Of a stretch of DNA of 64,000 bases, positions 1-28,841 are shown piece by piece (position 1 is the first letter of the stretch; the number at the start of each line of letters is the position of its first letter). A program made the position numbers and the translations under genes. The notes beneath the pieces were generated by a model, which made no database searches, was not told the DNA's origin, and saw only the letters and a program-made list of their open reading frames with translations. The stretch comes from Cycas panzhihuaensis (taxonomy: Eukaryota > Plantae > Cycadophyta): assembly GCA_023213395.1 (NCBI GenBank), contig CM041465.1, positions 176,459,741-176,523,740 on the forward strand, written 5' to 3'.

Positions 1-263
1 TAGTCTCATGACCTATTAGGATCACTTGACCTTAGTGGTTAGGGCTATTAGGGCTTAATACACCTTGGTACACTCATATGCTAATTCTATTCAATATCCA
101 GTAAATAATATGGGGTTCATACTTGTAATATCTTAAGAGGTATGTCCATCCAATGGTTGTGACTCTTTATCATATTTCATTGAATCTTTAATACCCATAT
201 CTCTTAGATAAACCACAAGTAATTAACCTTATACTAAGTTAGCTTCAAGTTAGTTTTCTAATA
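1..263 (-). repeat. 3' LTR of N1 (partial)
   Basis: Direct-repeat similarity to ~37760-38047; ends ...TTTTCTAATA next to the PPT complement. Confidence 0.75.
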
Positions 264-2844
264 TCCCTCTTTAAGGTGAGTGTGGGATCATAGGTTCTAA
301 TCAATTTCATTATCATGGCTAAAGACAAGAATTATCCTTACTATTATTGTTGTATCTAACATATTGTCCCTTAATAATAACTTTGTTGAATCAAAATTAA
401 CACACTCTTAAGTCCTCAGAAACAACTTTGCATGACTTCTTTATACACCACACACCTACAAAGGCCTATGCACCTTCCAATGGGATTAGTTTCCTCTCTT
501 TTATGGTTCTTTTTGTGTCAAACCCACTCCATATTGGTTCCATATCAACTTTTATCCTTTTAAATTCTCTCTCTCTCTCTCTCGTTATATAAGCTTTATT
601 CATAGAGTATATGTAGTAATATAGCCTCTTCTACACTCCAAGTAATATCATGGGGCTTCACATGCCTTCAACATAGACCTGCATGGCTTTAACGTGCATC
701 CCTATGGTATCTTACATTACAACCTAACTCTAATACGATCTAAACATCTATAAAATTCTCATTAGCAAAATAATTCTTTTCTTGATGAGTGAATATATAT
801 TTGACTAAGCATATATGGAGCACCTCGTTTTAAACACTTCAATGCTATCTCATTGAATTTTTAGTTTATCACATGTTTACTTGAGTGGCTCTTAGATATT
901 TTATGAATCTCACCATGGCCTCAACACTCCATCAACATTTGTACAGTCCACATGTAGTTTCATTGACCAAATGATTCATATGTAACTTCTAAAGCATTAC
1001 ATACTTTAACTTGGCCTATATATATTAATGTATCTTTTAATAGCTTTTGATAATTATTAAACTCCCTAAAACTACCTTTATTTTGTTGAGAAAATTTACA
1101 TATTTTGAATGGATAAGTGTGGCTCCTCACTTTAGAATATATAGATGTGGCCTCCATGACTAAGTTCCCCAAGGTTTCCACACCAAATATAGCCTCACAC
1201 CTATTTTGAACTTCTCTAAATTACATTTATTTTTTGGAAAATACCCTTAAGATTTTGAATACACTTCATGGATTTCAGACAAATTCTTTTGGTCTCAAGC
1301 TTCTATTGGTTTCATGATTATGATATCTCGTATTGTACAACTTTTCATGTGGCCCACATATTTACATATGTCCCACATGCTTTGCTTTGCTTTCATAAGC
1401 TCTTTCATGACCTCTACATGCTCTCTTATGGCTTGAAGTTACTTCAACATGCTTTTTATTGACCTTTAATGGACTTTAAACACTTCCACTTAGTTAAAAC
1501 AACTTCATGTCAATGTTCAATGACTTTATGCCAAGTTTATATGGTATTTACAAAGCTACCATCATTCTTACTTATGAAATGAGCCAACAATGCTCTATAA
1601 CTTCATGTAGCACTTCACACAACTTCCTTGGGATTTGTATTATTGCTTTTGTAGTTTTATTATTTTTTAATAGCTCACACAATGTTTATCTAATGCACTT
1701 CAATGCCATGCCATAGATCAACTCTAAATAACAGTTATACAAGTTTGAATGCCTTTAGATTACACTTTGTCAATATTAAATAACTTTATGTGTATATACA
1801 TTACTCTATAACTTTATGTCTCACTCATTCTTCTCAAAACACACCATACTAATGCTTCATGTAATGTTAATTATTAACAACTTTATTAACATGCCATGGC
1901 TTTATGTTGTAGCTATGCCAATTCTTCACACTACTCTATAACACCTATGTTCTTCTTACCATGGATTCTTATTGCTCCAAACTTCTTTATAATGCTTTGG
2001 ATGATGTTATGTCAGTTTGAATGCATCACATGTCATAATGCACTATTTACTATACAATATGACTTACTAATTTTGATTATAAGTTTAAATTCATATGTTT
2101 GTAGTGTAACACTCATGTTACATATTATACAATAGGTCTCTAATGCACTACATTGTTGCTCACTAATGTGCCATGTTATTTATGTAAGTTTTGAAATCAC
2201 AACTTTAAATTGGCTTCTCATAGTCCTCCAATGCAACACCACACTTCTTACAATGCCAATATGAATGATTTATAGTGGTTTCTTTCCCTACTTCTATTTA
2301 AGAATGGTCACAACCTTTATGTGACCATCAACCCTTTAGAAAATATACGCAGTTGCCATAGTTGAAAATAATAAATCGTATTTTCTTTCTTTGACCTTAA
2401 ACAATCAAATTCATAATTAAAAAACCTTTGTGACTATATACCAAGACTGACTCTCTTGAATTTATTAAGAAACTTTGATTAAATAATCTTTAATCATTGC
2501 AACATTATTCTTGGGCCATAGATCCTGGAACAAAGACAATGTAATACACTATTCTTACATGATTTAGTTGCCACTTTTTTTTGTCTTTATACTATGTTTT
2601 TACAATATTGAAAATCAAATTTCAATGTGAGATAGCTACCTTGTCTCTTTCAAATCTGTCACCTTCTTTGTAAACTCACTACCACTTTATGGAGCTTAGG
2701 AATTATTCATTAGTAAATGTAAGTGTTGTATGAACTTGAGACAATCCCCAATAAAACAATTCAAATCTTAATTATAATGGACCTATAAAGGCTTAGTTCC
2801 TTAACTAATCATGGAGAGATCAAGGTATCGATTATGGATAGACT

Positions 2845-3497
2845 TGTTGAGAAGCCAAGGTCCCAATACCCTGAAATTGCCACCAAGATCTAAACTATTC
2901 TTGTAACTAGTTATATGAATTAAAATTAAAATTTAATATGCAAGTTCATAAACTAGAGATAATATAATAAAATGAATAAGAAATCCAAGCATCACATATA
3001 CACCTGATATAACGTGGTAAAAACCTAGTAGTGTGCTAGCGAAACATCCACACAGGAAAGGTATCGATCTTTATTATTAAAGAATTGATAAAATGTATAC
3101 AATCTGTAGCAGAGTACTCACAACAACAACAACCAGCTACCTAACTCCTCACTGTATATCTAATACATCAACCACCATAATGAGAAATTCCCTAAATCGG
3201 GCTACATGAGAGAGTCATACAAGGCACAAATCTCAACCGTAGAATCTAGGATATTTTGAGTGAACAACCCTGATTCTCTTTATAATTTAATATATTTTCT
3301 AGTGCTAGCTTTTCGATTCAAGGGCTATTTCCCTTGAACCCCTTCTTTATGAGGGGCGTTCTATGCCCCCAACACCCCTTGGCCAAGGGGGGCTCCTGCC
3401 CCCCTTGGAACCCCCTAAGGAAGGTTTGGGGGGATACTGCGCTATCAACCTGTCCAAATTTTAGCCTCCAAACTATTTATTGTCACATTATCTAATA
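2845..3497 (-). mobile_element. Solo LTR (family S) inserted in the Gypsy-A 5' LTR
   Basis: Reverse-complement homolog of 14088-14733; TGTTGAG...CTAATA termini; perfect TSD AGACT on both sides. Confidence 0.9.
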
Positions 3498-4003
3498 AGA
3501 CTAAGGCATAGACTATGAGTAGAGTATGACTTAAATATTTATGCATTATGATAGAAGAATTAATATTGAATTTATTAATTCAACTTAGTCATTTATAAGT
3601 ATATTATACATGTTATAAATATTAAAGTTATATTGGTTACTTTATCATATTAATATGATAAAGTACATTGTAAGTATTATTATCATATTAGTGGTTAGCT
3701 ATAACTTGAGGTTATGAGCCTAATATACATGGGGTCATATTTTTCTTACACCTCATTGTAATGCATATGTATGTTGATTATCTAAGGTGCCAAATATCAC
3801 CACGCATGATTAGCCTTTCACATTCCCCCATACCCCTCTCATAATTATAAATATTTGTATATATGAGACAACATTGATGTAATATGATATTAGTGATGAA
3901 TGAATGTTGATTTTGGGGGCACTTTTGATGTATTATTTTCATGCATACTTTATGTGGTTAGATCATCACTAGAAGTTGGCTTGAACTACCACTTCCCTTC
4001 ACT

Positions 4004-4021
4004 TGGTATAAGAGCTAGGTT
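4004..4021 (+). promoter_or_regulatory. PBS of Copia-1 (tRNA-iMet)
   Basis: TGGTATAAGAGCTAGGTT matches 16/18 of TGGTATCAGAGCCAGGTT, the complement of the plant tRNA-iMet 3' end. Confidence 0.9.
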
Positions 4022-4420
4022 ATGATATACATCTATTATTGTATGTGAAAAATCCAATCCAAGCATTGATCATAATCCATGTATTATATTGACATACTTA
4101 ATAGCCTTATACAATCAATCACTCTTCTATACTTGGAGTGATTGAAGTTATCTCTACTACTCCTTCAAACTCCCAGGTCTTATATCCAAATATTTAAGCA
4201 TAGGGTGATCTTTAAGTATAGAGTAAATAGATGCAAGCTCTACTTCATAATTGGTAATAGCTTGATGAAGTTGTGTTCATTCTTGAATTGCATGGTCTAT
4301 CTTCCATATATAAACCTCCAAGCATTCTTATTTATGATGTAACATCATTTTATCTCTCTTGTCATCTATTTCTCCTATTTCATCCCATATTAACTAGAGC
4401 TCATAAAGAGAGTTGTAGAT
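4016..4420 (-). pseudogene. MAP65: Captured, intronless MAP65 N-terminal fragment, antisense in the Copia-1 leader
   Basis: Minus-strand translation NSLYEL*LIWDEIGEIDDKRDKMMLHHK*ECLEVYIWKIDHAIQE*TQLHQAITNYEVELASIYSILKDHP...GSLKE**R*LQSLQV*KSD*LYKAIKYVNIIHGL*SMLGLDFSHTIIDVYHNL matches recalled MAP65 motifs (LLYELQIIWDEVGE..RDKML..EQECLEVYRRKVD; QLQELQKEKSDRL.KV.E.V..VHDLC.VLGLDF..TV.EVHPSL). Most stops fall at Q/R codons. Confidence 0.85.
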
Positions 4421-5527
4421 GTAGAGGGTAAATCTATCATTAACATCCAAAATAGAAGTTTTAGTTATAATGTACAACTTGTTCAATGCTAATCCAAGGT
4501 TCTTTCTTAATATTCAACCATTTCTTGAAGTGTCCCTTGAATCTAGCATTACAAATCCATTTACTCTCTTGGCATTTTGTCTATATAATGATGTTTTGGT
4601 ACCCTCCCTTTTTTCTTCCTCATATATATCTCCAAAAATGATTTCATATGGAGAAATCACACTTCTAAATTATAGAACCTATATGTAGATAGAGTATAAG
4701 GCTTGCATAGCCTATAAATTCATAGTTCTCAACTACCTAAGTCTTATTTTACATTTTTTATTATGATTTGGGGCATTACTAAGCCTACAAGTTATTCATA
4801 AAGAACTTCTCTACTTTATGACTTTATTGGAGAAGGAAAAGGGTGAGAACATCGCCAAATTAAGGAGGTCTGCATTTTCCTATTACTAAAGCATTGGTTA
4901 ACTAGCTTCAAACAATCATCAAAGAGGGTGATTCTAATCTTTATTAGATCTTTAGATAGAGGTAAATGCTCTTTCATTAATTTATAAAGATTGATTGATC
5001 AATTTAGTTATGGAGACAAGTTTGGGTGACTTCCACATTTTCATTTTTACTAGCATTCATTATGAAATTAATGAAATAATGTAGTGTATCCATTCATTAT
5101 GATCCTCATAGAGTCTAAACCTTAAATACAGTGCCAGATTATGATTCCATAGTTTTATTAAAAAGAAATTCTTATCTATATCCTATTTTCATTACTCAAG
5201 TTTTCTAAACCTATCATTTAATTTTTATTTTTCTATAGTTTCTAAAACCATAGGTTATATAATTTATAATGTTCATAGAATATCCCCCCTTTAATATTAG
5301 TCTCCATCCTAAAGTTTTATTTTTTAATCTTATTAAATAATTTTTAACTCACTTTTAAGCTATCTTTATCCCATTTTTTGATCCACTTTGGGCTACTTTT
5401 TAGTCTTTTAGGAGTTTTTTAAAATTTTTGATATATTTTTATTTAAAAACACAAAAAAAATCATAAAATCATTAAAATAATTTTAAAAAACTTGAAAGAT
5501 TAAATCCTAAGTGAACCACCATCATTA

Positions 5528-5891
5528 CTAGTCTTGCAAGGGGAATGATTAGAACCCTTGAAGGTACCACTCCCACATATGTTATTATACTTTATCAAAT
5601 TTTATGGACTATAGGAGAAGTGAATAGCTATCAGGTGTATTACGTGGCCAACTAAGGTGTATACCTAAAAACTTTAAGAGTTTGGAGACCAAGTTAGATT
5701 CAGAGAGGATGAGTGCCTTAGTTGTAAGTATGTCTTGAGATGAGGATTTATCATTCAGGTCATAAATCTGGAATAGATGGATTAATAGTGTTAGGGAGGT
5801 AGTAGATCCATTAGTAGTGCCTATATATCTTTAGGTATATAGGGTCCCTAAACTGGCACTTATGAGTAGGTATGTCATCAGACAAAACAAT
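5528..5891 (+). promoter_or_regulatory. Conserved non-coding leader element upstream of Copia-1 gag (homolog of 44296-44618, minus)
   Basis: Colinear blocks shared with the Copia-3 leader: CTTGCAA.GG.AATGATTAG.ACCC, AGGTGTATTA.GTGG, AGAGTTT.GAGACCAAG, GAGAGG.TGAGT.CCTT.GTT, GATTTATCA, GGTCCCTA, CACTT.TG..TAGG. Function unknown. Confidence 0.7.
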
Positions 5892-5988
5892 CTCAACTAC
5901 CAGGGGCTATTAGGAAAGGAGACATAGACACTATATCTACTAGACTAGTAAATAATTTTAGATAGATAGGATACACACCTAAGATAAA

Positions 5989-8900
5989 ATGGCACTTTAA
6001 ATGGTTGTACCTAATGTAATTAAATTATTAGGTAGTGATAATTTCTTGGCTTAGAAGAAATAAGTCAAGAACATTCTAATAATAAACAAATTATAGTCTT
6101 ATGTTTCTAGTGATATTCCTATGCCTAAAGGTATCCAAGATCCTAATTAGTTTGATGTTGTCATCCCTAATAATCTTGTTTTTTAGCCTCCTTTAAAGAA
6201 TTGGATGAAGTTTCCCTTTCTTTCCTACACCTATCTTGTGAAGATAATGTTGACCAAAATATTGAATTTGTCTCTACTTTTGTTGAAGCTTAGAACATAA
6301 TCTATGCATTGTATGAAAGGAGAAATAATGTGAGAGTTGTCATACTCAAAGATTATCTCTATTCCATACTATTTATAGGATTAATTATAGCTCATCTAAT
6401 ACAGATCAAATTAATTAAGAACCAGTTGAGTGTTATGGGACAACCACTTGATGGTAATGATCTAATGTCTTGTATAGCTAATGTATTGTTAGCTAGATAT
6501 AATTCCCTCATATCTAACGTATCTCATATTGATTTCCTTATTACACTTCACTTCAACACCTTTAAAGGTCTTCTACTTTAAGAGGAATGTATTTTAGACA
6601 AATTGATAGATTCAAATACCTCCTCTTCTACTCCTTCCTTTGCAGCATGGCATAAAGGGAGATAATAACATCGACATCTTAATCAACAATTTGGTTTAAT
6701 GAATTTGAATAAACATCCCTATCAATAAAATTACCAATGACCTTAATATCCTATTTAGTTTGTTTATCACTATGGAAAACCTGATCACATTACACATGGT
6801 TATAAGAGGAAGAAAGTTGATCTACAATAGTAACAACACCAAAATTACCTTGTCACTCAAGGTAATCAAAATTATGGATGTGGTAATTATCAAGGATCAA
6901 GAGTGTAAAACTAAAATGACTATTAAGGGCTAAGGAAATATAATCAAAATTCCCCTTAGATCAATCAACATATTAGGAATTATAACCATAGTTGAAATTA
7001 GAATCAAGGTGGCCACATGGCTGATAAACTACACATCATTCTAATAAATCTTAGTTAATAGATTCTAGAGCCTCTCGTCACATGATAGGTTCCAAAGATT
7101 TACTTATAGACATAAGGATAATACATGACCAATCAACAACATTTGGTGATGATGTTGTTTTAAAGATTACCAACATTGACAATGCTCCTATATCTTTAAA
7201 GAATTTTGATATTTGACACCATCTTAACAATGTATTCTATGTCCCTAATATAACATATAATCTATTATTAGTTAGATAGATAAATAAGCAAAGCTTAATA
7301 TTTTGTTAATCGCCTTAGGAAATGTTTGATTATAGATTTGAATGGTAATTTCATTACCTCTAGATATAAAGATCAAGGCTTATATAAGCTTAATGTAATC
7401 TCAAGATTTATGTTCTTGCAAAATGATACTAGCTCTTATAGTAACACAACTTCCACTTCTCATACTTCTATTTCCACTTTAAATAGTGATGAATAATCTA
7501 CTTCAAAGGCACTTATTTCTTAGAGTTTTTCAAAAGACCAATTATGGCATCAACACTTTGTTCATTTAAATGTGAATAATTTTCATCTACTTGTCAAATT
7601 GAATATGGTAAATGAAATACTAAATAGTAAGCAAACCAAATATATCTATGAGGCTTATATTGTGGAAAAACATCATAGAGCTCTATTTGGATTAGATGGA
7701 AGAGCTTTGGATGCTAAGGAACCATTTGGTATGCTACATTTTAACATTTGTGGACCCATGTCTCAAGCATCTTATAATGGCTATTGATATTTTATTATAT
7801 TTATTTATGATTATTCTTAAAACATTTGGGTTTATTTCATGAAGCAAAAATAAAAAATATTTGAAAAACTTAGATAATTTAAGCTTGATATTGAATTGGA
7901 ATCTAAAAGTCTAATTAAAATTCTTCATTATAATAATAGAAGTAAATATAAATCTAGAAAATTCACCTAGTTTTACAAGGATAATGGCATTAAACAACAA
8001 TTCTCCACCCCTTACACACCTTAACAAAATGGAGTTGTTGAGCATATAAATTGGACCTTGGTTAGCAAAGGTCAAGCTATGATTACTATGAAAATTTTGG
8101 ACCTTTAATTCTAGGCTAAAGCCCTTAACATAGCTACTTATCTCATGAATTAAAGTCCAACCAAAGATGTTTTAAATATCACATTTGAGAGGGACTAGTT
8201 AAATAAAAAACCCATGGTCTCATATTTACACACTATTAGTTGTACAATATATATACTTATACTGATAGAATAAAGAAAGAAGCTAGATGATAAAAGTAGA
8301 AAATATATTTTCATAGGCAACTGATTTGGTTGTAAAGCATACAAGCTTTATGATCCTATTACTAAGCAAATGTATACATCTCAGGATGTTATCTTTTTAG
8401 AAGAGAACCATGACTTGGACATGACTCAACTATTATTCTTTGATGAATAACCTATAGTAACTCCTATTCCACCTCTTATTACACAAAGTATTCCTACAAT
8501 TCAGTTACCTCTATCAACATTATATACTCCCAGTACTTTATTTGTACCTCCTACCTCTACTTTAATAATTTCTTTGAAATATATTTAAGAAGAGGTCACT
8601 TCAAAGTAGCTCCTTAAATAGTACTTGCAGACGATCTCTTTTGCTCCATCACCTCCATAATAAACTAAGTGGAAATCCAAATATAGGTCATCCACCAACT
8701 TCATCTTAATGATAGAAGTATTATCGTTTCTTAAACCTACCACTTTTGAAGAAATTATTATAAATCAAAAGTAATAAGCAACCATGGTGAGGAGACTGAT
8801 TATATTTTGTAAAACAATACTTAGAACCTAGTTGAGTTACTTGATGGAAAGAAATCAATTGATTATATGTAGATTTACAAAATAAAATTTCATGCAAATG

Positions 8901-10270
8901 GCTCTATTTAATAATACAAAGTATGATTAGTTACTAAAAGTTTCAAATAGATTAAGGGCATTGATTATAAGGACACATTTATCCCTATATCTAACATGAC
9001 CACTATGAGGCGTGTTTTGGCTTTAACAACTTAATTTAAATGGCTTGTCTTTCAAATAGATGTGAAAAGTGCCATTTTAAATGGTAACTTATAGGAGGAA
9101 GTATACCTAAATCAACCTCCTAGCTATGTTGTTCATGGAAAATAGCATCTAGTTTACAAGTTGAATAAGACTCTCTATGGCCTTAAGTAATCACCACATA
9201 CTTGGTACGTGAAAATAGATGAATGCTTTCAAAAGCATGGACTTATATGCTCATCCTTGGATCCTAATTTATATATAAAATCTAAGATAATTTAATCGCT
9301 ATAGTTGTACTATATGTTAATGATTTACTAATAACAGGTAATAAACATAGAGTGGATTCCATACCTCTCAAGAGAATTGAATAGTATCTTTGAGATGACT
9401 AACCTTAGGTTTCTTCATTACTTTCTTATCATGGAAGTCTAGTAGTAGTTAGGCCATATGTTCCTTTTATAGTCCAAATATATAAGGGAGATCCTTCCAA
9501 AGTTTATAATAGAGGAATATAAGACATTGCTAACTCCTATGGAGACTAGACTAAAGCTAGATATTGATGAGCATGGTAAGCCTATGGATCCTACTTTATA
9601 TAGGTAGCTTGCGAGGAAATTAATTTACCTCACACATGCTTGACTAAATATTTCAGATATTATTAGGAACTACTTTAGGTTTATGACTTAACCTAAGATT
9701 TCACATTAGAAAGTAACTATGTGGATAATAAGATATCTTTAAGGTTCACTTCAGTTTAGACCTATTTACTTCTAGGTGGATAATCCTACTTTAGTAGGTT
9801 ACATAGATGTTGATTGGGCTAGTTACAAGGATAATTATATGTTGACCTCATGCTACTATTTTAACTTGGGTTTTGCCTCTATTTCTTGATGTTATAAAAT
9901 GCATCTAAATATTACCTTATCATCCATTGAAGTAGAGTACAAATATATAATTAGTGTATCTACAAAGGCTATTTGGATTAGATGGATTCTTTAAGAGCTT
10001 GGTATTGATCAAGCACAAGTTACTACTCCCTTCTATGATAATTAAAGTGTTGTAAAATTGACCAAGAATCCTATGTCTCATATGAAGATAAAGCATATTC
10101 AGGTTCACCATCACTTCATTAGGAAGTATGTTTAGGATGGTAAGATTGATTTGGTTTACAAGTTGATAAATAAATAAATTACTAATATCTTTAACCAAAC
10201 ACTTTCTCATTATAAATTCAAATGGTTTTGGAATGGCCTCAGTATCAGAATTAATGAACTTATCATTAAT
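5989..10270 (+). pseudogene. Copia-1 gag-pol (many stops and frameshifts)
   Basis: ATG at 5989 (MAL*MVVPNVIKLLGSDNFLA*KK..); protease-like *LIDSRASRHMIG ~7052; LWHQHFVHLN; integrase TPYTP*QNGVVE ~8005; RT Q(I)DVKSAILNG ~9055 and VLYVNDLLITG ~9310; RNase H GYIDVDWA ~9797. End coordinate approximate. Confidence 0.9.
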
Positions 10271-11502
10271 GGAGGGTGATGGAAGAATTGATGTTGAATT
10301 CATTAATTCAACTTAGTGATTTGTAAATGTATTATACATGTTGTAAATATTAAAATTATGTTAGTTACTTTATTATATTAATATAATAAAATATATTATT
10401 AGTATTATTACCATGTTAGTGGTTAATTACAGCTTGAGGTTGTGAGGCTAATATACATGGGATCATATTTACTCATACCTTATTATAACACACATGTATA
10501 TTGATCATACAAGGTGTCAAATATCACCTTGCATGATCAACCTTTCACATTCCATGATGCCTCTCTCATAATTATAAATATTTGTATATATGATGCAACA
10601 TTGATGTAATATAATATTAGTGATGAATGAATGCTGATTTTGGAGGATCATACATACTTCATATGATTGGATCCTATGCGGAAGCTAGCTTGAGCTACCA
10701 CTTCACTTCATAGTGTATAATTTTACTTTCTAGTTTGTTCATCTTATGTAAAGCATATGCTTATTTATGTAACATTAGGTGTAAGGATGTACTATTTGGT
10801 TATCTTATATTAGTTTATTCATCCCATGTAAGGTGTATGCCTATTTATGTAGTGCCAAGTGTGAGGATGCACCATTTTAATTTCTTAGTTTAGTAGGTAG
10901 TATAGTGTTAGGTTTCAGTCTATCCAAACTTAAAACTACCTATCTTATTTAATGTAAAATTATTCTTTTATTGGTTTCTTGCATAATATAAAAGTAGCCA
11001 AATTACTTCACATGGTTAGTGTAGACTAGGGAGCATATGATATGAACAAAGGAGGAATAGAGGAAAAATATAGATATAAGGGTGGATGATATATTTTATA
11101 ATTTTTATGACTTCATTGGAATACAAAAGATGCCTCATAATTTCAGAAATGAATATCTAAAAGGAAATATAAAGGAATTCTCTTCATAGTTTTATAAACA
11201 AGTCATTGAGCCCAAATATAAGAACATAAAGAGAATGAAAATGTATGAAAATAAGGAATTTAAAAACTTGATCCTTTAGCCTTAAAGAGAGGAATATGAA
11301 AGGGAATTATTTAGGCATCTATTACCTCTCAATCTACTCCATCTCTATAAGATTTTGGGGATGAGAAATTGAGAGAGAGAAAGCACATGAGTATTAAATA
11401 GACTATGATTTTGATCTTGAATATGGTTAGGTTGCATATACTAGAGCATGATCTTGATCTTAAGTAGAGTAACATCTAAGATTGGGATGATAGATAGATA
11501 CA

Positions 11503-11900: not shown

Positions 11901-12883
11901 TGGTTTAATTTAAAGGGGATCATTATGCTAAAATATATTTTAGATTAGCATTATTAAGAAAATGAATCCACAATTGAATAAATCTCTTAGGATTTTATCT
12001 CCATGCCATACAAGGAATAGATTTAGTAAGTGCCATAAATATGTGTAATCATTACCATTTCAATCTCCTTATGGGCTAATAGTTAAGTGACTTACTAGTA
12101 CTCCAATGATCATATCATGTGCTCTAACTTAGGAGAGATTTCCTTTATAAGAATGTTATTGATTGGGTAGTGAGTCTATCTAAAGTAATTTATCTAGTTC
12201 CTCCTTTTAGTTAAATTAATTATATGTAAGATGTCATAATAATAAATTATAATGCTTAGTTTCTTAATATCACTTATATAATTTACATTTGATAAGATTG
12301 AGTTTTAAAACAATTAGAAAATATCACTAATTACTTGAGTTAATAATATATTTGGGTATATGTTTTTCTACTAGGCATGTTAGCATAACTTAGATTCTAA
12401 GTTTTGTCATTCAAGTAGTTTAGTAGTGTTAGGAATATCAATGTTAGTTTTATTTTATTATTACTTTATCTTTATGTCACATGTGTAATTATAAATTTAA
12501 GTTATATAAAGGTTTAATCTATGATAATATTTATTCATTATGTGAAGGTCATTAAAATATGCAACTTCCCATTTCAACGAACCTCTCTTGCTACAAATAG
12601 TCTCTCCTAGATCCTAGGAAGGGATTCTGAGAATTTAGGAGGTTGTCCAAATCCTATTTCAAATGCTAGTTTATTGTATGTAGGAGGTATGCTTATCAAG
12701 GTTTAATGTATAGTTTCTAAAATCAATAAATTCTTAGATTAGGAGGTGGCTTTTCTTCCCCAGAAGGGGTTTTCCACCTATCAAATGTTGTGTACGTGTG
12801 CAATGTCTAATTTTACTTATGTTTGTTGATTTCTTAATCATGTGGCATTGTGCATGATACCTATTCTTACATGGTATCAGAGC

Positions 12884-13032
12884 TAGAATCATCTTTTCTA
12901 TGTTTCTTTGAATGTTTATGCTTATGCCTCCTCTGATGCCTCCTTTTCTTACCTCCTTCCTCAGAATCTCTTCTAATACTTGAATCTGAATTAGATGAAA
13001 ATTTTGTATGTTTCCTGCTGGCCCTTTTATCT
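12884..13032 (-). pseudogene. Probable captured fragment of a K/R/S-rich (nuclear-type) protein mRNA, antisense, abutting the Copia-2 PBS
   Basis: Stop-free minus frame DKRASRKHTKFSSNSDSSIRRDSEEGGKKRRHQRRHKHKHSKKHRKDDSSSDT running into the PBS complement. Low complexity; parent gene not recognised. Confidence 0.5.
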
Positions 13033-13036
13033 ATAA

Positions 13037-13506
13037 AGGGAGGGCTAGCTTTGTCTATTCAAGGGGTGGTTGTGCCTTGCCTCGGTAAAAGTTAGACAGG
13101 GTCCAAGTTGCATTCCTCAATATGGACAGTTTTATTTAGCTGGGCTATAAGAGGCATGAGGGCACCATGACTAAGGACAAAATCTCTACATTTAGGTGAA
13201 TCGCCAGTCATATTCCCCAATGCCCAGATAGTCTATTCTTGAACATCATCACTTGGAGAGCCAACATGCTACACAAAAATTGGTACAACTCCATGGTTAA
13301 TAACAACACGAGTGTGTTCTAATGTTCCTGAAGCAATATTTATCAAAGCCCATGCAGCCTCAAACTGAAGCTAAAAAAAATCATTCCTTGTGAGGAACTC
13401 CATAAAACAGGGGACCACACCTGAAGCAATGAGAGAAGCTTCCTAAACTGAGTAGTTGCTTCTAGTTATAAAGAAGGATCATCAGTCCATACTACTGATA
13501 CCATGG
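13037..13506 (-). pseudogene. IMPA: Captured, intronless importin-alpha fragment (first ARM repeats), antisense in the Copia-2 leader
   Basis: Minus-strand translation [75 protein letters not shown]...[31 protein letters not shown]...[27 protein letters not shown]: diagnostic importin-alpha motifs with no intervening introns. Confidence 0.93.
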
Positions 13507-14087
13507 CTATCCTCGAATTCAGTCAAAGTGACATCCTTATAATCACACTACAGAGCTTATAGTATGGCTTCTAGTACAACCAATAACACTTAGAGTGACA
13601 ATGCCTGGAGGAGATGACCTAGACAAGAAGTAGGAAGGAAATATTAAACCACACAAGGTTGGCCTTGAAGGCTTCCTCAGAGAGATTCTAAAAGACCTAT
13701 ATCAACTGGAAGGCAAACATTTTCTCCTCCTCACCTTATCACCGAAGAACCTTCACTACCACGAACTAGAAGGAGAAAACCAGATAAATGCCATTAAGTT
13801 ATCATTCTCATTGTAGAAACCCTAACTAGGGTCAAACGCTACCATCATCTGCCCCTCACAACAGCAAAAAATAACATTAGAAGAAACCTAACAATTGGTT
13901 GATCTTAGCGTGGAAGGTAAACATCTGAAACAAATTCTCAACGATGTTGTTAAAGTAGCCTATCCAAGTGAACCTTGGTTCAACTTTACCTCAATGCAAA
14001 CGATCCTTCCAAAACTCCAGTTGAAGAAAGAAGCCTTCAAACTACTTGCTGATACCTCCTTCTCGACGTCATTACTCAGATCTATGA

Positions 14088-14733
14088 TGTTGGATATTGT
14101 GACAACAATATTTTGGGGCTAAAATTTTGGCATGTTTTCGGCATGATTTCCCCCCTTAATCTTTCTCGAGGGGTTCGAAGGGGGGTGGGAGCCCCCCTTG
14201 GCTGAGGGGTGCGAGGGGAGTCGAACGCCCCCTATTAAGAGGGGGTTCAGGGGTGATAGCCCCTGACCCAAAAATTAGCCCTGTAAACCATATTAAAATG
14301 TAAAGAGAATTAGGGTCATTCGATACAAATACCCTAGATTCTATGGTTGAGATTCATGCCTTGGATGTCCCTCTCATGTAGCCTGATTTAGGGATTTTTC
14401 TTATTATGTTGTATGTAATATAATGTACTATGATGAGGGCAGTGGCTGGTTGTTATTCCTGAGAGCACTCTACTATTGAGATGTATTGTTTCTCCATTCT
14501 ACAGTAATAAAGATCAATATCTTTCCTGTGTGGATGTTTCCCTAGTACACTGCTAGGGTTTTACCATGTTATATCGAGTCCATTTGTGATGTTTGACTTT
14601 CATTTTAATGTTATTATATAATCTTTGATTTTAGAACTTGCATGTAATTTTAAGTTTCAATTTCTATAACTAGTTGCAAGAATGTAATAGATCTTGGTGG
14701 CGGTTAAAGGGTTAGGACCTTGTATTCTCAACA
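14088..14733 (+). mobile_element. Solo LTR (family S) inserted in the Copia-2 leader
   Basis: TGTTGG...CTCAACA termini, TSD TATGA/TATGC, homologous to the reverse complement of 2845-3497. AATAAA at ~14506 supports + orientation. Confidence 0.9.
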
Positions 14734-15057
14734 TATGCAGTCGTTCGAATGCTATTGACCTGCAACCAGATGAAGTCCAAAAGCTGCCACCATCAATAAG
14801 TAGGGTTTACATCTCGTTATCCCTTTCAGACCGTAAATTCCATTTAATTTTAGTTAACTCCTTTTTTAAAAACTAAAAACAAAACAACGGTTGGGTCTGA
14901 GTTATGTTATGTTTTTTATATAGTTTTTTATATGTATATTAAGAACAATAAACCTTAGGCTAAATTTAAACCCCCCCTTTTCGATTATTAAATCCCCTAC
15001 ACTTTATCAATCCCTTCTTATTACATTTGATTTACATTTTTAAAATTAACCCTCTCA

Positions 15058-15063
<6 letters not shown>

Positions 15064-15109
<46 letters not shown>

Positions 15110-15113
15110 TTTT
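15064..15113. repeat. (TA)n plus poly-T microsatellite in the AT-rich Copia-2 leader
   Basis: Direct reading. Confidence 0.9.
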
Positions 15114-15965
15114 CAAAATTAAGTCAAATCAATTTTAGGCTAAAATCAAGATAAACTCTCTTTTGATTAAATAAACTTTATTATGAATTACCATTCAATT
15201 ATATATACCTTATGGTAATTAACATAAACCTTCTTTCATTACATTCTAAAATCAAATCAACCACCCTCACATTTTATTATTGATTTATAAAGCTGCCTCT
15301 CTTATTACAATTTAATAATTTTATTAACCCCTTACATCTTAATATTAAAAATAGTGTTCCCCTTATTATATAATACCTCTTTTAATATCTTTTCTAATTA
15401 AATTTTTATTTTTAATCAATAAAAACTTTTTATAACCCCCATTAAATATTTAGAAATTAAATCCCTTTCAATACTAGATTTTAATTATGTTATTTTACTT
15501 GTTGATTTAATAAATAAATTAATAAAACTTTTTTTCCTTTTAAACTATATATCTTTGTTTTTTCTCAGCATTATCATTTTGTAGAAGACCTATAATAAAT
15601 TTTACAAACTATTGCTTTCTAATTGACAATAGTAAATCAATAACCTTTTATCTTATTCATATATATCTCTCAAAACAATAAAAAAGAAATCTAAATACTC
15701 TAGTTATAAAGTATTTTTTAAGTCTTAAATAAGCAATTACTTTATTAAATAAGTTAAGGGGACTATTAAATTTTTTCAAAAAAGGGGAACATGTAATTCT
15801 TTTTAGGGGAAAGGTATTCAATCATACAACTATGATTTTTAGTTTTTTAAACATACCTGTGAAATGTTAAGAATTACTCTGATGTTTGGTAACTTTTTTA
15901 AGTGACTATTTTCTCACCTACACTTACAACTTCTGATCTCTAATTAATCTTATAATATAGCTCTA

Positions 15966-18900
15966 ATGATAGGGACAACTACCTGCGTTCCAATTCTAAT
16001 TTTAACCAGCTCAAACTATGCCGACTGGAAGAATCACATATCTAATTAGCTTAAACAGTAAAAGATATGGTGATATGTAATAGGTGAATTCAAGAAATCA
16101 ACTGATGCAACTTTAGAAAGTTATATAGTATATCCAATGAACTTAGATTTAGCCATAGGCATCATCCTAAACTCACTTTCACTAGAAATCAGTCAGTAGT
16201 TCTCTGAAACAGATGATCTAGCCACTATCTAAAATACTCTTAAGGAGAAATATGATAAGGTCGACATGTATCAATTGGTTGTTTTAGAATAGCAATTGTA
16301 TGACCTTAATTATGATGATTTTTCTAAAGTTAAAGACTTTTTATCTAAAATTCAACTAATCAATAAAGACCTAGGCAACTGTATTAAAACCAAAATTAAA
16401 GTAGGTGATGATGAACAAATAGTCACACGTCTTAAAAATGACGATATGCTCGTTCATCTTACTATAAACAAATTACCAAAACATTTTTATTTCTTCAAAC
16501 TATTAGACAACAAGTTGGTAATCCTCCTATAACTTTTAATCAGTTGACAAATCAACTGATAGAACATCAAACCATATTAATTCAAACAAGAATGTTAAAA
16601 GATCCTTATCAGACTTTGTTTTCCAAAACTAAGTCTCAAAATAAAAACAAACATTAGAATAACTTCAATAGTAATCCAAAATTCCAGAAACCTCATATAG
16701 GTTCACCTTCTAACTCTCAAAATAATATTAAGTATTCGGGTCCATCTAAATATCATAATACTTCCAATCAGTCTTTTTCAAATTGAAACACTATTAATCC
16801 TTCTCAAAGTATTAGTTGTACCTATTGTTATAAAAAAGGCCATACTATTGATGTCTGTAGAAGTAGAATAACCTCAAAAGCATGGAAAGGTTCTAAGTGA
16901 TTGCAAACTTGACCATAATCTCGACCACAAAACTAGTAACAAACTCATAATTATTCTCTAATGGTAATAACTTCTACATTTGTTGTGCCAACTAATCAAC
17001 TATCACAATGGATCCTTGACTTTAGTGCATCCCATCACATGACAGGACACCAGAAAAACTTATCCACTTATCAATTTAAAACTAACTCTAAAGAAAAGAT
17101 TTCTTTTGGATGTGGAACCCAACTTAAAGTAAAAGGAACATGTGATGTTACTTTAAAAGATGGTTCAATAAATGATGTCTTCTATGTACTTTGGTTGTTA
17201 CCAAATCTACTCTTTGTTTACCAAATCTTATAAAAAGACCTTGTCGTCAAATTCTAGAAAGACAAATTTATTATTAAAGAACCATTAAACAAATTTAAAC
17301 ATATTATCTCTAGACTTGTTAATCATAGTACAAGTCTCTATAGTTTAATGAGTTTACAAAATAACAAAACAAAGCCCTTTAGTGCCTTTATAGCTAAATT
17401 TGACTCATTAAGTAAACTATGGCATGCATGATTTGTCCATACTAGTTATGGCAAACTTAAATACCTAAAAAGACATGACATGGTTTATGGTCTTCTACCT
17501 TTATATACTATTTATGGTGTTTGTGAAGCTTGTGTAATACATAAGCAACGCATGGATCATTTTTCACATAAAACTCAATTCAGAGAGAAAGTTTCACTTA
17601 AACTTATTCACTATGATATATATGGACCATTTCATGTAACTTCATATTCTGGCTCTCATTATTTTGTCATATTTATTAATGATTATTTAAGAAAATATTG
17701 GGTATACACACTCAAGACACGTAGTTAAGTGTTTGACATTTTTATTGAATTCAAAACACTTATTGAAAGCCAATCAAACTTGAAAATTAAAATTTTCAAA
17801 TCTAATAATGCCAAAGAATACTTAAGTAGAAAATTTACTTCCTTCTGTAGTAAGCACATAATATAATTTTAGCATTCTGTTGTCTACACTGCTTAACAAA
17901 ATGGTGTTGCTAAATGCAAGAACCTCACTCTTGTTGAGATGACTTGTTACATGTTACATACAAAGAATCCTAATTTAAAGTTGTGGGCAGAAGCAATTAC
18001 TTGCTCCAACTATCTTTTAAACCACTTACCTAGTAAATGCTTACAAAACATTACTCCAGAATAAAAGTGGTATAGAAGACAACCCTCAATTAATCATCTA
18101 TAAATATTTGGAACTATTACGTGGGGACACATTCCCAAAGAAAAACATAAGAAACTAGATCCAAAAAGTCAAAAATATATCTTCATTGGAAACAATAAAG
18201 AAAGTAAAGCCTACAAACTTTTGGATTCAATCACACATCAAATTTTAGTTTTGCATGACGTAATATTTGATGAAGATGGATCTTCTTCAATCTCTACTTA
18301 TGTAGAACTTTCGATTGAAAAAGTGTTAACCAATACCTATGCTGTTAACCCCTTTGATAAACAAGTTGACCCTGAAATTATAGAATCCTTATCTACACAA
18401 GTCTAGAATTGCACTCTATTTGAACCAACTAGAATAGATTCTTCTTCTCAAGCTAGCTCCTTAGCTCAACCTGTAACTACAGAAATAATTACTAATAAAC
18501 AACCCATATGGGCAAAGAAAATACTTTCTAACACTAGATCTAATGTAGGTAATCCTTTAGATACTAGATGAACACGTGCTTAAAAATTACATGCTAACTA
18601 TGCTTTAATGGCCAAAATAATGGATAATAATCATCCTAAAACCTTTAAACAAGCTAGTAATAATCTTGTATGGTAAGAAGCTATGCAAGTTGAATTTGAT
18701 GCTTTAAACAAGAATTCAACTTGGGATCTTGTACCACTCCCACCAGGAAAAAATGTAGTTGATTGTAAATGGGTTTATAGAACTAAGTACAACTCAACAG
18801 GTGTAGTTGAAAAACATAAAGCTCACATAGTTGTAAAAGGATTTTCTCAAATTGATGGCATAGATTATGACAAAACCTTTACCCTTGTTACAAAAATGAA

Positions 18901-20170
18901 TACAATTAAAACAATTATTGCTCTAACAACCAAATTTGGTTAGAAAATCTATCAAATAGATGTAAAGAGCACTTTTCTGAATGGTGATCTCAAATAAGAG
19001 ATCTACATGTTTCAACCACCTAGTTTTATTAACAATCCTAATTTAGTTTGTAAATTAAAGAAATCAATATATGGATTAAAACAAGCTCCTTGAGCTTGGT
19101 ACACAAAAGTTGATGATTGTCTAATTCAAATTGGATATACTAGATGTATTAGTGATCCAAACCTTTATTTCAAATGTGAAAACAAAAATATTACTATTTT
19201 AATCCTATATGTTGATGATATCATCATTATTAGATCATCAACTAATAACATTCATCACTTAAAAACTACTTTAATGAATAAATTTAAAATGATTGATCTA
19301 GGTCTCCTACATTATTTTTTCGAATTATAAATTTACCAATATGATTTAAAAATAACTATTTCCCAACCAAAATATATTTTAGACTTAATCAAATGGTTTA
19401 ATATGGAAAATGCTAAACCGGTTTCTAATCTGTTACAATCAAAAGTAAAACTATCTACTGATTGTTCCATACCCTCATGTGATGCAACCTTATATAGGCA
19501 ACTTATTGGTAGTCTTATTTATCTAACTCATACCAGTCTTGATATATCCTATGATGTCACCTTATGTTCATGTTATATGCAAAAACCACATGAATCATAT
19601 TAGAAAGCTGTTAAATATATACTTCGATATCTTTAAAACACTATTTTTTATAGACTAACTTATAACTCTTGTAGCAAACCTCTAATCTTAATAGGTTATA
19701 TAGATTCAGATTGGGCAAGCAACATAAATGATCATAAGTCTGCATCAGGTTATGTATTTTTTCTAGATTCTTTACCTATTACTTGGTCTAGTAAAAAAAT
19801 ACAGGCACTAGCTCTCTCAATGACTGAAGCTGAATATTGAGCACTCGTTGAAGCAAGAAAAGAAGCACTTTGGCTCAAATCTCTTCTAAATGAAATTGGT
19901 TTGTCTCCTAACTCTTCTATAGAACTTAAAGTTGATAATCAAAGTGCTATTACTATTGCTACAAATCCAGTTGCATATTCTAGAACTAAACACATAGAAT
20001 TACATCAACATTTTATTCATAATCTTGTTACTGATAATATTGTTCATTTATTTTATTGTCCTATAGATCTACAGGTTGTTGATATACTTACCAAGTGTTT
20101 GACTGAAGTCAAGTTTCTAAACCTGCGAGATTTGTTATAGATAAAAGAAATCTCTATCAAAGAGGGATCA
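15966..20170 (+). pseudogene. Copia-2 gag-pol (degenerate)
   Basis: ORF fragments: gag (16296-16532), Zn knuckle CTYC...GHTIDVC ~16817, protease WILDFSASHHMTG, integrase CEAC..LIHYDIYGP, RT WDLVPLPPGKNVVDCKWVY, RNase H KVDNQSAI..RTKHIELH. Confidence 0.93.
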
Positions 20171-21139
20171 ACATGATGAAAACCTTCTTTTACCATATTA
20201 TATAAAACCTAACATTAAAGGGGGATGTTAAGAATATTAATACTAGTTTTATTTTATTGTTATTTTATCTTTATGTCACATGTGTAATTATAAATTTAAG
20301 TTATATAAAGGTTTAATCTATATTAATATTTATTCATTATGTGAAGGTCATTGAAATATGCAACTGACCATTTCAACGAACCTCTCTTGCTATAAATAGT
20401 CTCTCCTAAATTCTAAGAGTGCATTCCAAGAATCTCGGAGGTTATCCAAAGTCTATTTCAAAGGCTAGTTTATTGTATGTAAGAGGTATGCTTATTAAGG
20501 TTTAATGTATAACTTCTAAAATCAATAAATTCTTAGATTAGGAGGTGGTTTTTCTTCCCCAAAAGGGGTTTTCCAACTATCAAATGCTGTGTACATGTGC
20601 AATGTCTAATTTTACCTATGTTTGTTGATTTTTTGATCCTGTGGCACTGTGCATGATACCTATTCTTACAAGTAGATATTGTCTTAGTTGACAAATTCAA
20701 ATAAGTCTTAACTAAGTAGAGCCACAACTAACCTATTGGGGTTGTGAGATGTGGTATCATAGCAAAGGTTAAAAGCATACACTTATGATAGGTATGGCGA
20801 TAGGGCAATAAGGTGAAATCCCATCTTATTAAAGATTCAAGGTGATGGATATTATGAAACCATGAAACTTTAATAATCTCTTAGGTGACAAAGGTGGTTT
20901 TATGAGCTAAAATTTAACAAATTATTATTGAAACTTAACAAATTACTAATTAGGACTTCATAAGTTAAATTTTAATAGATTTCTCATTAAGGTTTTATAA
21001 GTTAAAACTTGACAAATTTTTTATTAGGGTTTTATAAGTTGAAACTTAATAAAATACTGTTAGGATTTCATAACCTAAAGTTTAACATATTATATAATTC
21101 TAAGTATGAAAACCTTAATTTATAAAGAAAGAGACACCA

Positions 21140-24100: not shown

Positions 24101-24431
24101 ATGATTTATAGATAATAGTAGTTATGCATAAACTTAAGGCATAGAGGCATTATCTACTTAGAAAATGTTTTAAAAGCATGATAGTATTAAGCTCATACTT
24201 GCTGAACCCTATCTTAATGAAAGACAATGTAGATGGATGAAGTACTTGTATGAATTCAATTTCCATCCAAAATACATTAAAGGAAAGGAGAACAAAGTGG
24301 TGGAAACTCTAATTCGATGATATCACATTACCATAGTAAGTATGTAGTGACTTAATTTGACTAGCATCATTGTGGTAGCTTATGAAAAGGGAAAATACTA
24401 TAAGCAAGAAAAAGAAGCCTTACAAATGTAA
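21140..24431 (+). pseudogene. Gypsy-A gag-PR-RT-RNase H (degenerate)
   Basis: gag EAKVWLLGIDKYF..ASMWCE (21586-21798), protease ILIDLGSGHNF ~22530, RT ORF 23461-23760, RNase H NYPTHDL ~24088. Start approximate. Confidence 0.85.
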
Positions 24432-25433
24432 TGTTAGGTGTAATATCCAATTACATAAATTAACCCTATGTAATCTTTCTCTATATTCTTTGTATTTTAT
24501 ATTAGAGGTTGTGGGTCCCATAGAGATATATGCCACCTATAAGTTGACCAATAAGATTCTCTCACTAATGGTGAGCATGTACTATAGGTATATACCTATC
24601 ATTCCCTCTAATTTGAGTTTTGGCTAATTGTCCACATATAATGTTTATTTGTGTATATGTTATACTTTAATACTTTATCTTTAACTCACCATTAGTTGTG
24701 TTTTGCATATTATATTTTAAATTCCTAATATGGTATCAGATCCCAAGGTTTAATCCTTAGAGGCATCATTGTAAACCCTAGTACATATTATTCTTGTTTT
24801 GATATTTTAAGCCTTGTCAATTTTTTTATGTGCCTACTTTGTGATATTAGTCACTTGAAGGATCATTTCATGTTATGTAAAGCCACCTTATGTACATTTT
24901 CTTATGGGACTATTATCAACTTTTGAGGAGCTATTTTGAGGACTTTTTTTAGTTGTTTTAAAGCTTATTTAAGCTACTCAAGTGGATATCTTATATGTCT
25001 GTGGCACTATAATAATATTACATGTAGGTTCTTCATGGTGAAAGTCCATGAAAATTTTTTGTGTGGATTCCAATTATTGTATAGATATCTCCTTCATATG
25101 TAAGTAGACAGATTTTAGTAGGAATTATTAATAGTAATTGAGACAGTTTCTTCTTGCTATCTAAAGGCCAAAAGTGACTCCATTTTGAAAGGGTTTATAG
25201 ATTTACAAGTGAATAAAAGATTATATATTTTTCTACTAATATGTACTCTCTTTGTGATTTATTATATTAAAAAAAAATAAAAAAATTATATTTATGGCTG
25301 TCAAAATTTGGCCTATATTCTTATGTATTTTCAAAAAAAAAAAAAGAGAAAGAGGGAAGGGGGTTGGAAGAAGATTTTTTGCATCACTAGTTTCAGCAAA
25401 ATATACAACTTTGATAATGGAGCTTGTATAGAA

Positions 25434-25935
25434 AATGTTCTCGTTCTAATTATATACAACACTAAGGAAATAGAGGCTATCATTTTGATTGATGTTTTTA
25501 GAAAAGCAAGATCTAATATGATAGTGACATCTATGGAATCTAACCTCTAGATTGAGCCTTCCAAGAGAGTTACACTTGTGGTAGACACCTTCATTTCTAA
25601 TTATGCATAATAGATATTTGACCTTATTATTCTAGGAGGAGGGATGCTAAGTTCCTCAAGGTTGATAGACTCTGAAATTTTACAAACCATCATAAGAAAA
25701 TAGGTAGCAGATGATCAAATTTATGGTACTATATATGCAACACTAGTAGTTTCCCTTTAGTCATGGGGTCTTTGATAAGTTATCCTCATCACTGACAATT
25801 AGGTCAAAGGTTCAGAAAGATGGGCTAATAACCACAAGTCATGGTCTAAGCATTTTCATGGAGTTTACTCTATCTTTTGTTGAATAACTATATGGAAAGG
25901 AAAAGGACAAGGAGATTTCAAATCTTATGGTTGTG
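25434..25935 (+). pseudogene. DJ1: Captured, intronless DJ-1/PfpI-family fragment (one domain), sense within N2
   Basis: NVLVLIIYNTKEIEAIILIDVFRKARSNMIVTSMESNL*IEPSKRVTLVVDTFISNYA**IFDLIILGGGMLSSSRLIDSEILQTIIRK*VADDQIYGTIYATLVVSL*SWGL/..SKVQKDGLITTSHGLSIFMEFTLSFVE*LYGKEKDKEIS matches plant DJ-1 (KVLVPI..GTEE.EA...IDVLRRAGA..FDLI.LPGGMPG..YGAICAAPA..TTSRGPGT.MEF...LVEQL.GKEKA.E). Confidence 0.88.
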
Positions 25936-26850
25936 TGTATAAATAACAAGACTCAATGGCAAGCCACCCAACACAAATTTGTAAATGATGGAAGCAACCC
26001 CTATAAATCATCATGGTAGCCTTGACTCCCTTAGGTAGACCTTCAATGGTGAATATAAATTGATGGTAGCCACACAGATGCTCCTATAAAAAAAATGGTA
26101 TATAAACCCTAATAGGGTCCATATACATTTTATTTGATTCATATTATACTTTAGCTTATGTTTTTTAATCAGTGGACAACAAATTTTATAAGAAAGGGTT
26201 TATTTTTTTTATGTTTGTAAATTTGGACTTAATGAAATTAAATAGTTTTTTTGGGTCTACTCAACCCCCCATCTATTTAGCACCTATTCATATGAAGCTC
26301 CCATATGACCTCTAGCTTGCTAGTGAAAGGGGCTTAACCCCTATTTTTTATACTTTATGGATTACTCATCACAGTTTTGATGATATCTTGAGGTAAGGGG
26401 CTTATTTTTTCAGTCTCATCTATTATATTGGGTTTGTAAGAAATAGATCTTTCTGTTGAAAAGTCATTTGACACTATTTGGATTTATTTTCATGAAGAAA
26501 TTTTAGTTTAAAATCACAAGTTTATGTTTTTCTTTATTTTTTAAAATATTCTTTGGACACATATTATATTTTCAAGGCTCCATGATGTAATGTACCCTAA
26601 ATGGAGGGGATAATATATACCAAGGTCCTAATTTTTGGCTCTTAAGAACCCATTGAGTTTTATTTTCAACTTTATTATATGAGAGATAGTCATTCATATA
26701 ATATTTAATTCACATCTATCATTATTTAGTCATGTAAAAATATTATTGCTAGTTATCTTGCCCATGGTGGCATGTTGTAAATCCAAAAGAGGCATTTTTT
26801 AGACCATGAGGTGATTTGTGGCTAATGAGCCACTTGAAGACTACTTGCAC

Positions 26851-28765: not shown

Positions 28766-28787
28766 CCCCCCCCCCCCCCCCCCCCCC
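28766..28787. repeat. poly-C run (22 nt) in the Gypsy-B leader
   Basis: Direct reading. Confidence 0.9.
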
Positions 28788-28841
28788 TTAAGAGAAATAG
28801 AAACAGAATTGAGATCAAGGAAAAACCTCATTCCTAGGAAG

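What the first reader, a model, noticed from the sequence alone, without database searches (positions are those of the whole stretch)
4004..4060. MAP65 reading frame runs into the 18-nt PBS: candidate PBS-primed capture mechanism
The PBS reads TGGTATAAGAGCTAGGTT (tRNA-iMet complement TGGTATCAGAGCCAGGTT) with no spacer before the cargo. On the minus strand the MAP65 frame reads ...GAT GTA TAT CAT AAC CTA G (DVYHNL, cf. MAP65 EVHPSLD), so its last two codons are supplied by the PBS 3' end. It is established that plus-strand strong-stop DNA ends in a copy of the PBS. I infer that this 3' end (..CCAGGTT) mis-annealed to A(A/G)CCUGG in a co-packaged mRNA and was extended on it. That would place an intronless antisense fragment directly after the PBS.
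Basis: partly seen in the sequence, partly recalled or inferred. Interest (0 to 1): 0.8.

Follow-up and report, generated by a model that had tools for sequence, protein, structure and literature searches.

The report
Backwards host gene abutting retrotransposon primer-site
An old, decayed jumping gene in a gymnosperm genome carries a backwards piece of the host's microtubule gene MAP65 joined directly to its tRNA primer site, at a spot where the host messenger RNA partly matches that site, so the piece was likely picked up when a copying intermediate primed on the wrong template; this is one case, not yet a rule.

Summary
A decayed Copia element (LTRs 3549-4001 and 10277-10710) has an 18-nt tRNA-iMet PBS (4004-4021, 16/18) followed directly by antisense MAP65 coding sequence (4022-4409, with an in-frame 186-nt deletion). 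I read the host donor mRNA from RNA-type contigs of two public runs. In exact register with the PBS 3' end it reads AGCTTGG, not the predicted A(A/G)CCTGG: 5/7 Watson-Crick pairs plus two wobble pairs. In an orthologous CDS, 0.2-3% of positions score as well (8.6% with register slack). The element keeps the PBS letters across the overlap, as a primer would. Against the reading: the two bases next to the PBS mismatch the donor, and an 18-nt PBS is not diagnostic. Intron loss is untested. Other decayed MAP65 copies run through the junction, so the join may be a later mis-transfer onto an already cargo-bearing minus strand. PBS-end mispairing of some kind about 0.75; priming on mRNA about 0.45. 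Gene capture is very common in gymnosperm LTR elements and aberrant second-strand transfer is known from HIV-1, so this is a likely variant of a known process, shown in one element.

The parts
3549..4001 (+). 5' LTR (TG...CA) of a decayed Copia element
   Evidence: 80% match to 10277-10710; 70 differences in 434 aligned columns, K2P 0.19; 54 contigs of run X1 have loose ends at 3549
4004..4021 (+). 18-nt tRNA-iMet primer-binding site, 2 nt after the LTR
   Evidence: 16/18 to the tRNA complement (PMC6135502 passage)
4015..4021 (+). PBS 3' 7-mer that lies in register over donor AGCTTGG (5 Watson-Crick + 2 wobble pairs); letters at 4018 and 4020 are PBS-type, not donor-type
   Evidence: register from the loose end (4044 = L001 862); donor letters; scoring
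4022..4159 (-). Antisense MAP65 fragment, PBS-proximal part (about residues 165-210 of the Ginkgo orthologue)
   Evidence: tblastn; host RNA-type contigs match 4074-4149 at 65/76 and, by their loose end, 4044-4073 at 22/30
4160..4409 (-). Antisense MAP65 fragment, distal part (residues 20-102); an in-frame 186-nt deletion separates it from the proximal part
   Evidence: host contigs match 4193-4409 at 182/217; 229 donor letters stand where the window has 43; Pfam
4410..5150 (.). Unassigned low-copy leader sequence (right end approximate)
   Evidence: X1 depth 1-33 in the bins 4462-5105 against 125-6470 in 5198-5565; no hit
5989..10265 (+). Decayed gag-pol, Copia order (gag, protease-like beta-barrel, integrase, RT), many stops and frameshifts
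   Evidence: Pfam: Retrotran_gag_2 (weak, E=0.02), Pol_BBD, gag_pre-integrs, rve, SH3, RVT_2 E=2e-39
10266..10276 (+). Polypurine tract
   Evidence: purine run directly before the 3' LTR
10277..10710 (+). 3' LTR; no matching 5-bp target-site duplication recognised

Best explanation
A decayed Copia retrotransposon carries an antisense MAP65 fragment joined to the last base of its primer-binding site, likely because plus-strand strong-stop DNA, which would end in a copy of the primer tRNA, mispaired through its last seven bases with a MAP65 mRNA that was presumably co-packaged and was likely extended on it. Shown: the element, the orientation, the junction position, the donor's partial match in register, and PBS-type letters across the overlap. 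Inferred: co-packaging; an 18-nt stop in this family; extension toward the mRNA 5' end with a slip at a short direct repeat (the 186-nt deletion); a jump back to the element's minus strand, perhaps via further foreign sequence (4410-5150); integration as a heteroduplex; and limited later copying. The cargo is now neutral decaying sequence with no intact frame.
For: (1) The junction falls at nucleotide 18 of the tRNA copy with no indel. (2) Donor 885-891 (L001 numbering) reads AGCTTGG; no other letter was listed at 885-891 for the 5 contigs spanning it, of 6 laid. Background on the orthologous CDS: at least 5/7 Watson-Crick in 30 of 2301 positions; anchored 7-run with wobble in 5 of 2301; duplex energy as low as the host site's in 3.1%. 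(3) Overlap letters are primer-type. (4) Plus-strand extension on an mRNA gives antisense cargo directly; minus-strand switching onto an mRNA gives sense cargo (inference from the reverse-transcription scheme; model in PMC5131818, passages). (5) Free tRNA-tailed strong-stop DNA accumulates in Ty3 particles (PMC5371799), and aberrant second-strand transfer at the PBS is documented in HIV-1 (PMC12657518). (6) Cargo and mRNA are colinear with no insertion over 4193-4409 and 4074-4149.
Against: The predicted motif is not exact, and only 5 canonical pairs remain. With +/-3 nt slack, 8.6% of positions reach 5/7. The score was chosen after seeing the site, and the site was picked by a reader scanning for such coincidences. 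Bases 4022-4023 mismatch the donor; one needs a G-to-T change, a class seen at 1 of 44 listed places. An 18-nt PBS is not diagnostic: L004 has one natively, and two other PBS-like sites in the window end in AGGTT shifted by 1 and 2 nt. Intron loss is untested. Other decayed MAP65 copies cross the junction with gene sequence (X1 records 1 and 2; one of the two X2 variants). The background uses a conifer orthologue, not the host mRNA, and RNA energy parameters stand in for a DNA:RNA duplex.
Confidence: 0.45

Rival explanations
1. Secondary deletion. A progenitor element already carried a longer antisense MAP65 piece (or the minus strand had switched onto an antisense RNA). In a later cycle the strong-stop DNA mis-transferred onto the same seven bases in minus-strand DNA, deleting everything between the PBS and this point. 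The microhomology is real, but the template was DNA and the first capture happened by another route.
For: It predicts the same junction signature. Decayed MAP65 copies extend through the junction (X1 record 1, 846-916; X1 record 2, whose loose end skips 17 donor letters). X1 record 1 shares two codon changes with the window that the mRNA lacks. A further copy shares the distal junction at 82% (X1 record 4, 4346-4577). Transfer of plus-strand DNA to a downstream site on minus DNA is the HIV-1 precedent.
Against: The longer copies were not shown to lie in this element family. Their shared changes sit at one CAG site, a CHG methylation hotspot (own knowledge), so they may be convergent. Wobble pairs are weaker in DNA:DNA than in DNA:RNA (own knowledge). 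It needs two events and leaves the antisense orientation unexplained.
Confidence: 0.3
2. Coincidence or DNA-level capture. A MAP65 cDNA or pseudogene piece entered the leader by break repair or illegitimate recombination, or later deletion brought it next to the PBS. The partial match is chance or an ordinary repair microhomology.
For: Gymnosperm genomes hold on average about 400,000 TE-captured gene fragments (PMC13477047, abstract and passages), so 1-9% coincidences are plentiful. The two bases flanking the PBS mismatch the donor. The locus is old and rearranged (no TSD recognised; internal deletion).
Against: It needs the breakpoint to fall within 2 nt of the tRNA-copy end in a leader of about 2 kb and also on a top-few-percent complementary site, with primer-type letters kept.
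Confidence: 0.25

Closest known systems
LTR-mediated retroposition by microsimilarity-dependent template switching (Tan et al. 2016, PMC5131818; passages read; cites maize Bs1 and yeast Ty)
   Same: Partial mRNA piece between two LTRs, short similarity at a junction (median 6 bp there), possible further cycles of copying.
   Different: There the retrocopy replaces part of the element's ORFs, by switches during cDNA synthesis from the element's RNA. Here gag-pol is retained, the cargo is antisense in the 5' leader, and the junction is the PBS end.
Aberrant second-strand (plus-strand) transfer in HIV-1 proviruses (PMC12657518; passages read)
   Same: The tRNA-copy end of plus-strand strong-stop DNA defines the junction and pairs at a wrong site; the paper also proposes mismatched double-stranded products.
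   Different: There the acceptor is viral minus-strand DNA and the tRNA copy reads through m1A58 by 7-54 nt. Here there is no read-through and the joined sequence is a host gene.
Cell-derived inserts beside LTRs in unintegrated retroviral DNA (Dunn, Olsen and Swanstrom 1992; only the title seen in a reference list; content recalled)
   Same: Cellular RNA copies joined at LTR ends, as I recall through strong-stop DNA priming.
   Different: Single-cycle avian retrovirus products, not a fixed plant genomic element; I could not read the paper, so the match in detail is unverified.
TE gene-fragment capture in gymnosperm giga-genomes (PMC13477047; abstract and passages read)
   Same: A Copia element with a decayed host exon fragment in a gymnosperm.
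   Different: The main text has no occurrence of 'PBS', 'antisense' or 'orientation'; its supplements were not read.

Membership tests
Ty1/Copia LTR retrotransposon | Two direct LTRs, TG...CA | tested here: met
Ty1/Copia LTR retrotransposon | PBS after the 5' LTR, PPT before the 3' LTR | tested here: met
Ty1/Copia LTR retrotransposon | gag-protease-integrase-RT order with RVT_2 | tested here: met
   (stops read as X; gag hit weak)
Ty1/Copia LTR retrotransposon | 5-bp target-site duplication | tested here: inconclusive
   flanks agree at 2 of 5 positions in a locus with 16% LTR divergence
LTR-mediated retrocopy (Tan et al. 2016) | Host gene fragment between the LTRs | tested here: met
LTR-mediated retrocopy (Tan et al. 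2016) | Intron loss relative to the donor gene | tested here: inconclusive
   colinear with mRNA, but no donor genomic sequence; bamboo MAP65 genes have 9-15 exons (PMC11548304 passage), positions not given
LTR-mediated retrocopy (Tan et al. 2016) | Microsimilarity at the switch points | tested here: inconclusive
   PBS side 5/7; distal side cannot be scored because the cargo-free leader of the family was not obtained
LTR-mediated retrocopy (Tan et al. 2016) | Cargo replaces part of the internal ORFs | tested here: not met
   cargo lies in the leader; gag-pol remnants are present
Aberrant plus-strand strong-stop priming/transfer product | Junction at the 3' end of the tRNA copy | tested here: met
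Aberrant plus-strand strong-stop priming/transfer product | Acceptor complementary to the primer 3' end, primer letters retained | tested here: met
   5 Watson-Crick + 2 wobble pairs; modest statistics
Aberrant plus-strand strong-stop priming/transfer product | Acceptor was mRNA rather than minus-strand DNA | not testable with these tools
   needs all family copies from an assembly (none held)
Aberrant plus-strand strong-stop priming/transfer product | Strong-stop DNA of this family ends at tRNA nucleotide 18 | not testable with these tools
   18 nt in HIV-1, 12 nt in Ty3

The most novel reading that the evidence does not exclude
Plus-strand strong-stop DNA priming on co-packaged mRNAs is a distinct, recurrent route of gene capture in plant LTR retrotransposons. 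It would place host fragments antisense at the very start of the element's transcript, choose donor breakpoints by resemblance to the tRNA-iMet T-loop end, and make every such element a source of antisense RNA against its donor gene.
Probability: 0.2. Interest if true: 0.7.

Novelty: new variant of a known kind. Interest (0 to 1): 0.42.

Why it matters
The usual template-switch model for LTR gene capture predicts sense cargo, and antisense cargo is left unexplained. A PBS-primed route gives a sequence-level prediction (antisense orientation, junction at tRNA nucleotide 18, donor match to the PBS end). That can be tested directly on the hundreds of thousands of captured fragments in gymnosperm genomes and in long-read sequencing of retrotransposon particle DNA. 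It would also bear on how captured fragments silence donor genes. On its own, this single dead element proves no rule.

Tried and rejected
No host assembly was held, so sister copies, the donor's introns and the genome-wide test were out of reach. No RNA holder of the element was listed, which is no evidence on expression. The first read-laying stopped at 4074 and did not reach the junction; laying the same host runs on a conifer orthologue did. Searches for a genomic MAP65 locus found none (0 confirmed of 38 and 0 of 124 stretches). A tRNA-iMet gene was not found by ARAGORN in 36 of 36 loci holding the PBS motif, so the motif rests on a paper and L004. The idea that a full 18-nt PBS is itself proof of strong-stop fixation was rejected. 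A second captured gene in 4410-6000 was sought without result: Pfam on six frames, one minus frame each, one plus frame in the Atlas (best 0.88, low recognition), Rfam (one chance-level hit, E=0.81). A codon-model scan gave only a weak signal at 4471-4620. Exon skipping as the cause of the 186-nt deletion was considered; both breakpoints lie in a short direct repeat in the orthologue, which favours slippage, but host letters there were not read. Paper searches for a plant precedent of PBS-primed antisense capture listed none by title or abstract; the library lacks most subscription and older papers, and no supplements were read.

Full report
Setting. The window is AT-rich plant DNA full of decayed LTR elements. 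The finding lies in a Copia element: LTRs at 3549-4001 and 10277-10710 differ at 70 of 434 aligned columns (K2P 0.19), the oldest of the 4 LTR pairs measured (others 0.10-0.13). A polypurine tract precedes the 3' LTR, and gag, Pol_BBD, integrase and RVT_2 remnants follow in Copia order. No target-site duplication was recognised (2 of 5 positions agree). The cargo's best protein match is Ginkgo, then other gymnosperms. The stretch is held by runs under four organism labels, so the host is a gymnosperm with several close relatives; a cycad is my guess, not a result.

Observation. After the LTR and a 2-nt spacer, 4004-4021 matches the plant tRNA-Met complement at 16 of 18 (consensus as printed in PMC6135502, passage read). 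The minus strand from 4409 down to the PBS is MAP65 (Pfam E=4.3e-6, slightly below the curated cut-off; tblastn residues 20-102 and 169-212 of the Ginkgo protein, the only two hits in the window).

The donor. Laying four public runs on 3450-6200 showed one long RNA-type contig in each of two runs (X17, 2601 nt; X19, 2635 nt; that they are RNA is the tool's guess or my inference). Both match 4193-4409 (182/217) and 4074-4149 (65/76), with 229 donor letters where the window has 43, an in-frame loss of 186 nt. Of the 44 places of difference tallied for X17, 32 are window A/T against donor G/C, the decay expected of methylated TE DNA. The loose end extends homology over 4044-4073 (22/30) and fixes the register. 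To read the junction I fetched a full-length conifer orthologue mRNA (L001, 1 confirmed of 336 stretches; 99.7% to P0006) and laid X17, X19, X1 and X2 on it. The host contigs align over 846-929 with 11 differences, of which only those away from the ends are listed (884, 887, 899), so about 877-899 is read. Window 4044 equals L001 862, so the last PBS base (4021) sits over 885. Donor 885-891 reads AGCTTGG.

Test of the prediction. Against the PBS end it gives 5 Watson-Crick pairs, including the terminal one, and 2 wobble pairs. On the orthologous CDS, 30 of 2301 positions reach 5/7, 5 of 2301 give an anchored 7-run with wobble (one is the orthologous site itself), 3.1% give as low a duplex energy, and 8.6% reach 5/7 if the register may slip 3 nt. 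A fair reading is p about 0.01-0.03 for one site, chosen after the fact, on a stand-in sequence. Across the overlap the element has the PBS letters (4018, 4020), as expected if the PBS end was the primer; 4020 could also be decay. Against: 4022-4023 mismatch the donor, one by a rare transversion class (1 of 44). Strict homology therefore ends 2 nt short of the PBS, by decay or by misincorporation.

Is the 18-nt PBS itself a clue? Only weakly. It is the best of 11 PBS-like sites in the window at positions 13-18 (5/6; the two sites directly after other 5' LTR ends score 3/6), but two others end in AGGTT shifted by 1 and 2 nt, and L004 carries the full 18 natively. Where strong-stop DNA ends also varies: at m1A58 in HIV-1 (PMC12657518) and after 12 nt in Ty3, where such DNA accumulates as a dead-end product (PMC5371799).

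Other copies. In DNA run X1 (about 52% read), own-locus contigs have depth 2.9-4.8, the cargo 27-34 and the LTR bins 214-1558 (summed depths are not copy numbers), and 7-8 contigs overlap single cargo positions. The cargo is therefore rare within a large family. One contig crosses the distal junction at 82% (4346-4577), which points to a second copy of the chimera. In one search, DNA contigs run through the PBS-side junction with gene sequence: X1 record 1 looks decayed and shares two codon changes with the window, X1 record 2 has a deletion relative to the mRNA, and X2 has two variants. Their genomic context is unknown. They keep alive the rival that a longer cargo came first and the PBS join is a later mis-transfer on minus-strand DNA. 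The proximal ends of sister copies were not visible because the output tables were cut.

Mechanism. Most likely (0.45), tRNA-tailed plus-strand strong-stop DNA mispaired with a co-packaged MAP65 mRNA, was extended toward its 5' end with one slip, and returned to the element's minus strand. This yields antisense cargo at the PBS in one cycle. Secondary mis-transfer onto cargo-bearing minus DNA gets 0.30, and chance or DNA repair 0.25. Intron loss, which would favour an RNA template at some step, is untested: the cargo is colinear with the mRNA, and bamboo MAP65 genes have 9-15 exons (PMC11548304), but no donor genomic sequence was found. The stretch 4410-5150 is low-copy and unassigned.

Comparison and verdict. 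Capture by LTR elements with junction microsimilarity is established (PMC5131818, passages), gymnosperm genomes average about 400,000 captured fragments (PMC13477047, abstract and passages), and aberrant second-strand transfer is known in HIV-1 (PMC12657518, passages). Six searches listed no plant report of PBS-primed antisense capture; the library is incomplete, older retrovirus work (Dunn 1992, title only) probably covers the chemistry, and supplements were not read. Earlier scan notes describe PBS-end joins in other genomes; they are unchecked leads. Interest 0.42; a likely new variant of a known process.

Noticed in passing
window 4150-4192: The cargo lacks 186 nt (62 codons) in frame; in the conifer orthologue both breakpoints fall in a short direct repeat, as in polymerase slippage.
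   Followed up: partly
window 4410-5150: Low-copy leader sequence with weakly open frames on both strands at about 4412-4690; may be a second captured piece, but no database hit.
   Followed up: partly
runs X1 and X2 on L001:846-929: Several different genomic copies of the same MAP65 gene exist in the host group, at least two decayed; this donor appears to have been copied repeatedly.
   Followed up: partly
window 52826-53227 (+): A 133-codon stop-free frame containing LFVERLPKNCTHREVSHIF, which I recall as resembling plant RRM RNA-binding proteins; Pfam gave no hit at E 0.01. Possibly another gene fragment.
   Followed up: partly
window 48185-49689 and 50081-51599: A 1.5-kb inverted repeat at 74% identity with a gap of about 400 nt; a PBS-like site lies at 51546.
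   Followed up: no
window 20752 and 24731: PBS-like sites that end in AGGTT shifted by 1 and 2 nt, suggesting bulged extended tRNA pairing in other elements.
   Followed up: no
window 5474-5565 and 6026-6117: Very high read depth in run X1 (6470 and 15042) inside this element's leader and gag start, marking short motifs shared by many elements.
   Followed up: no
window 12427-20670, 28112-33886, 39584-47707, 24116-27776: Further direct-repeat (LTR-like) pairs at 79-91% identity, partly nested in older repeats.
   Followed up: no
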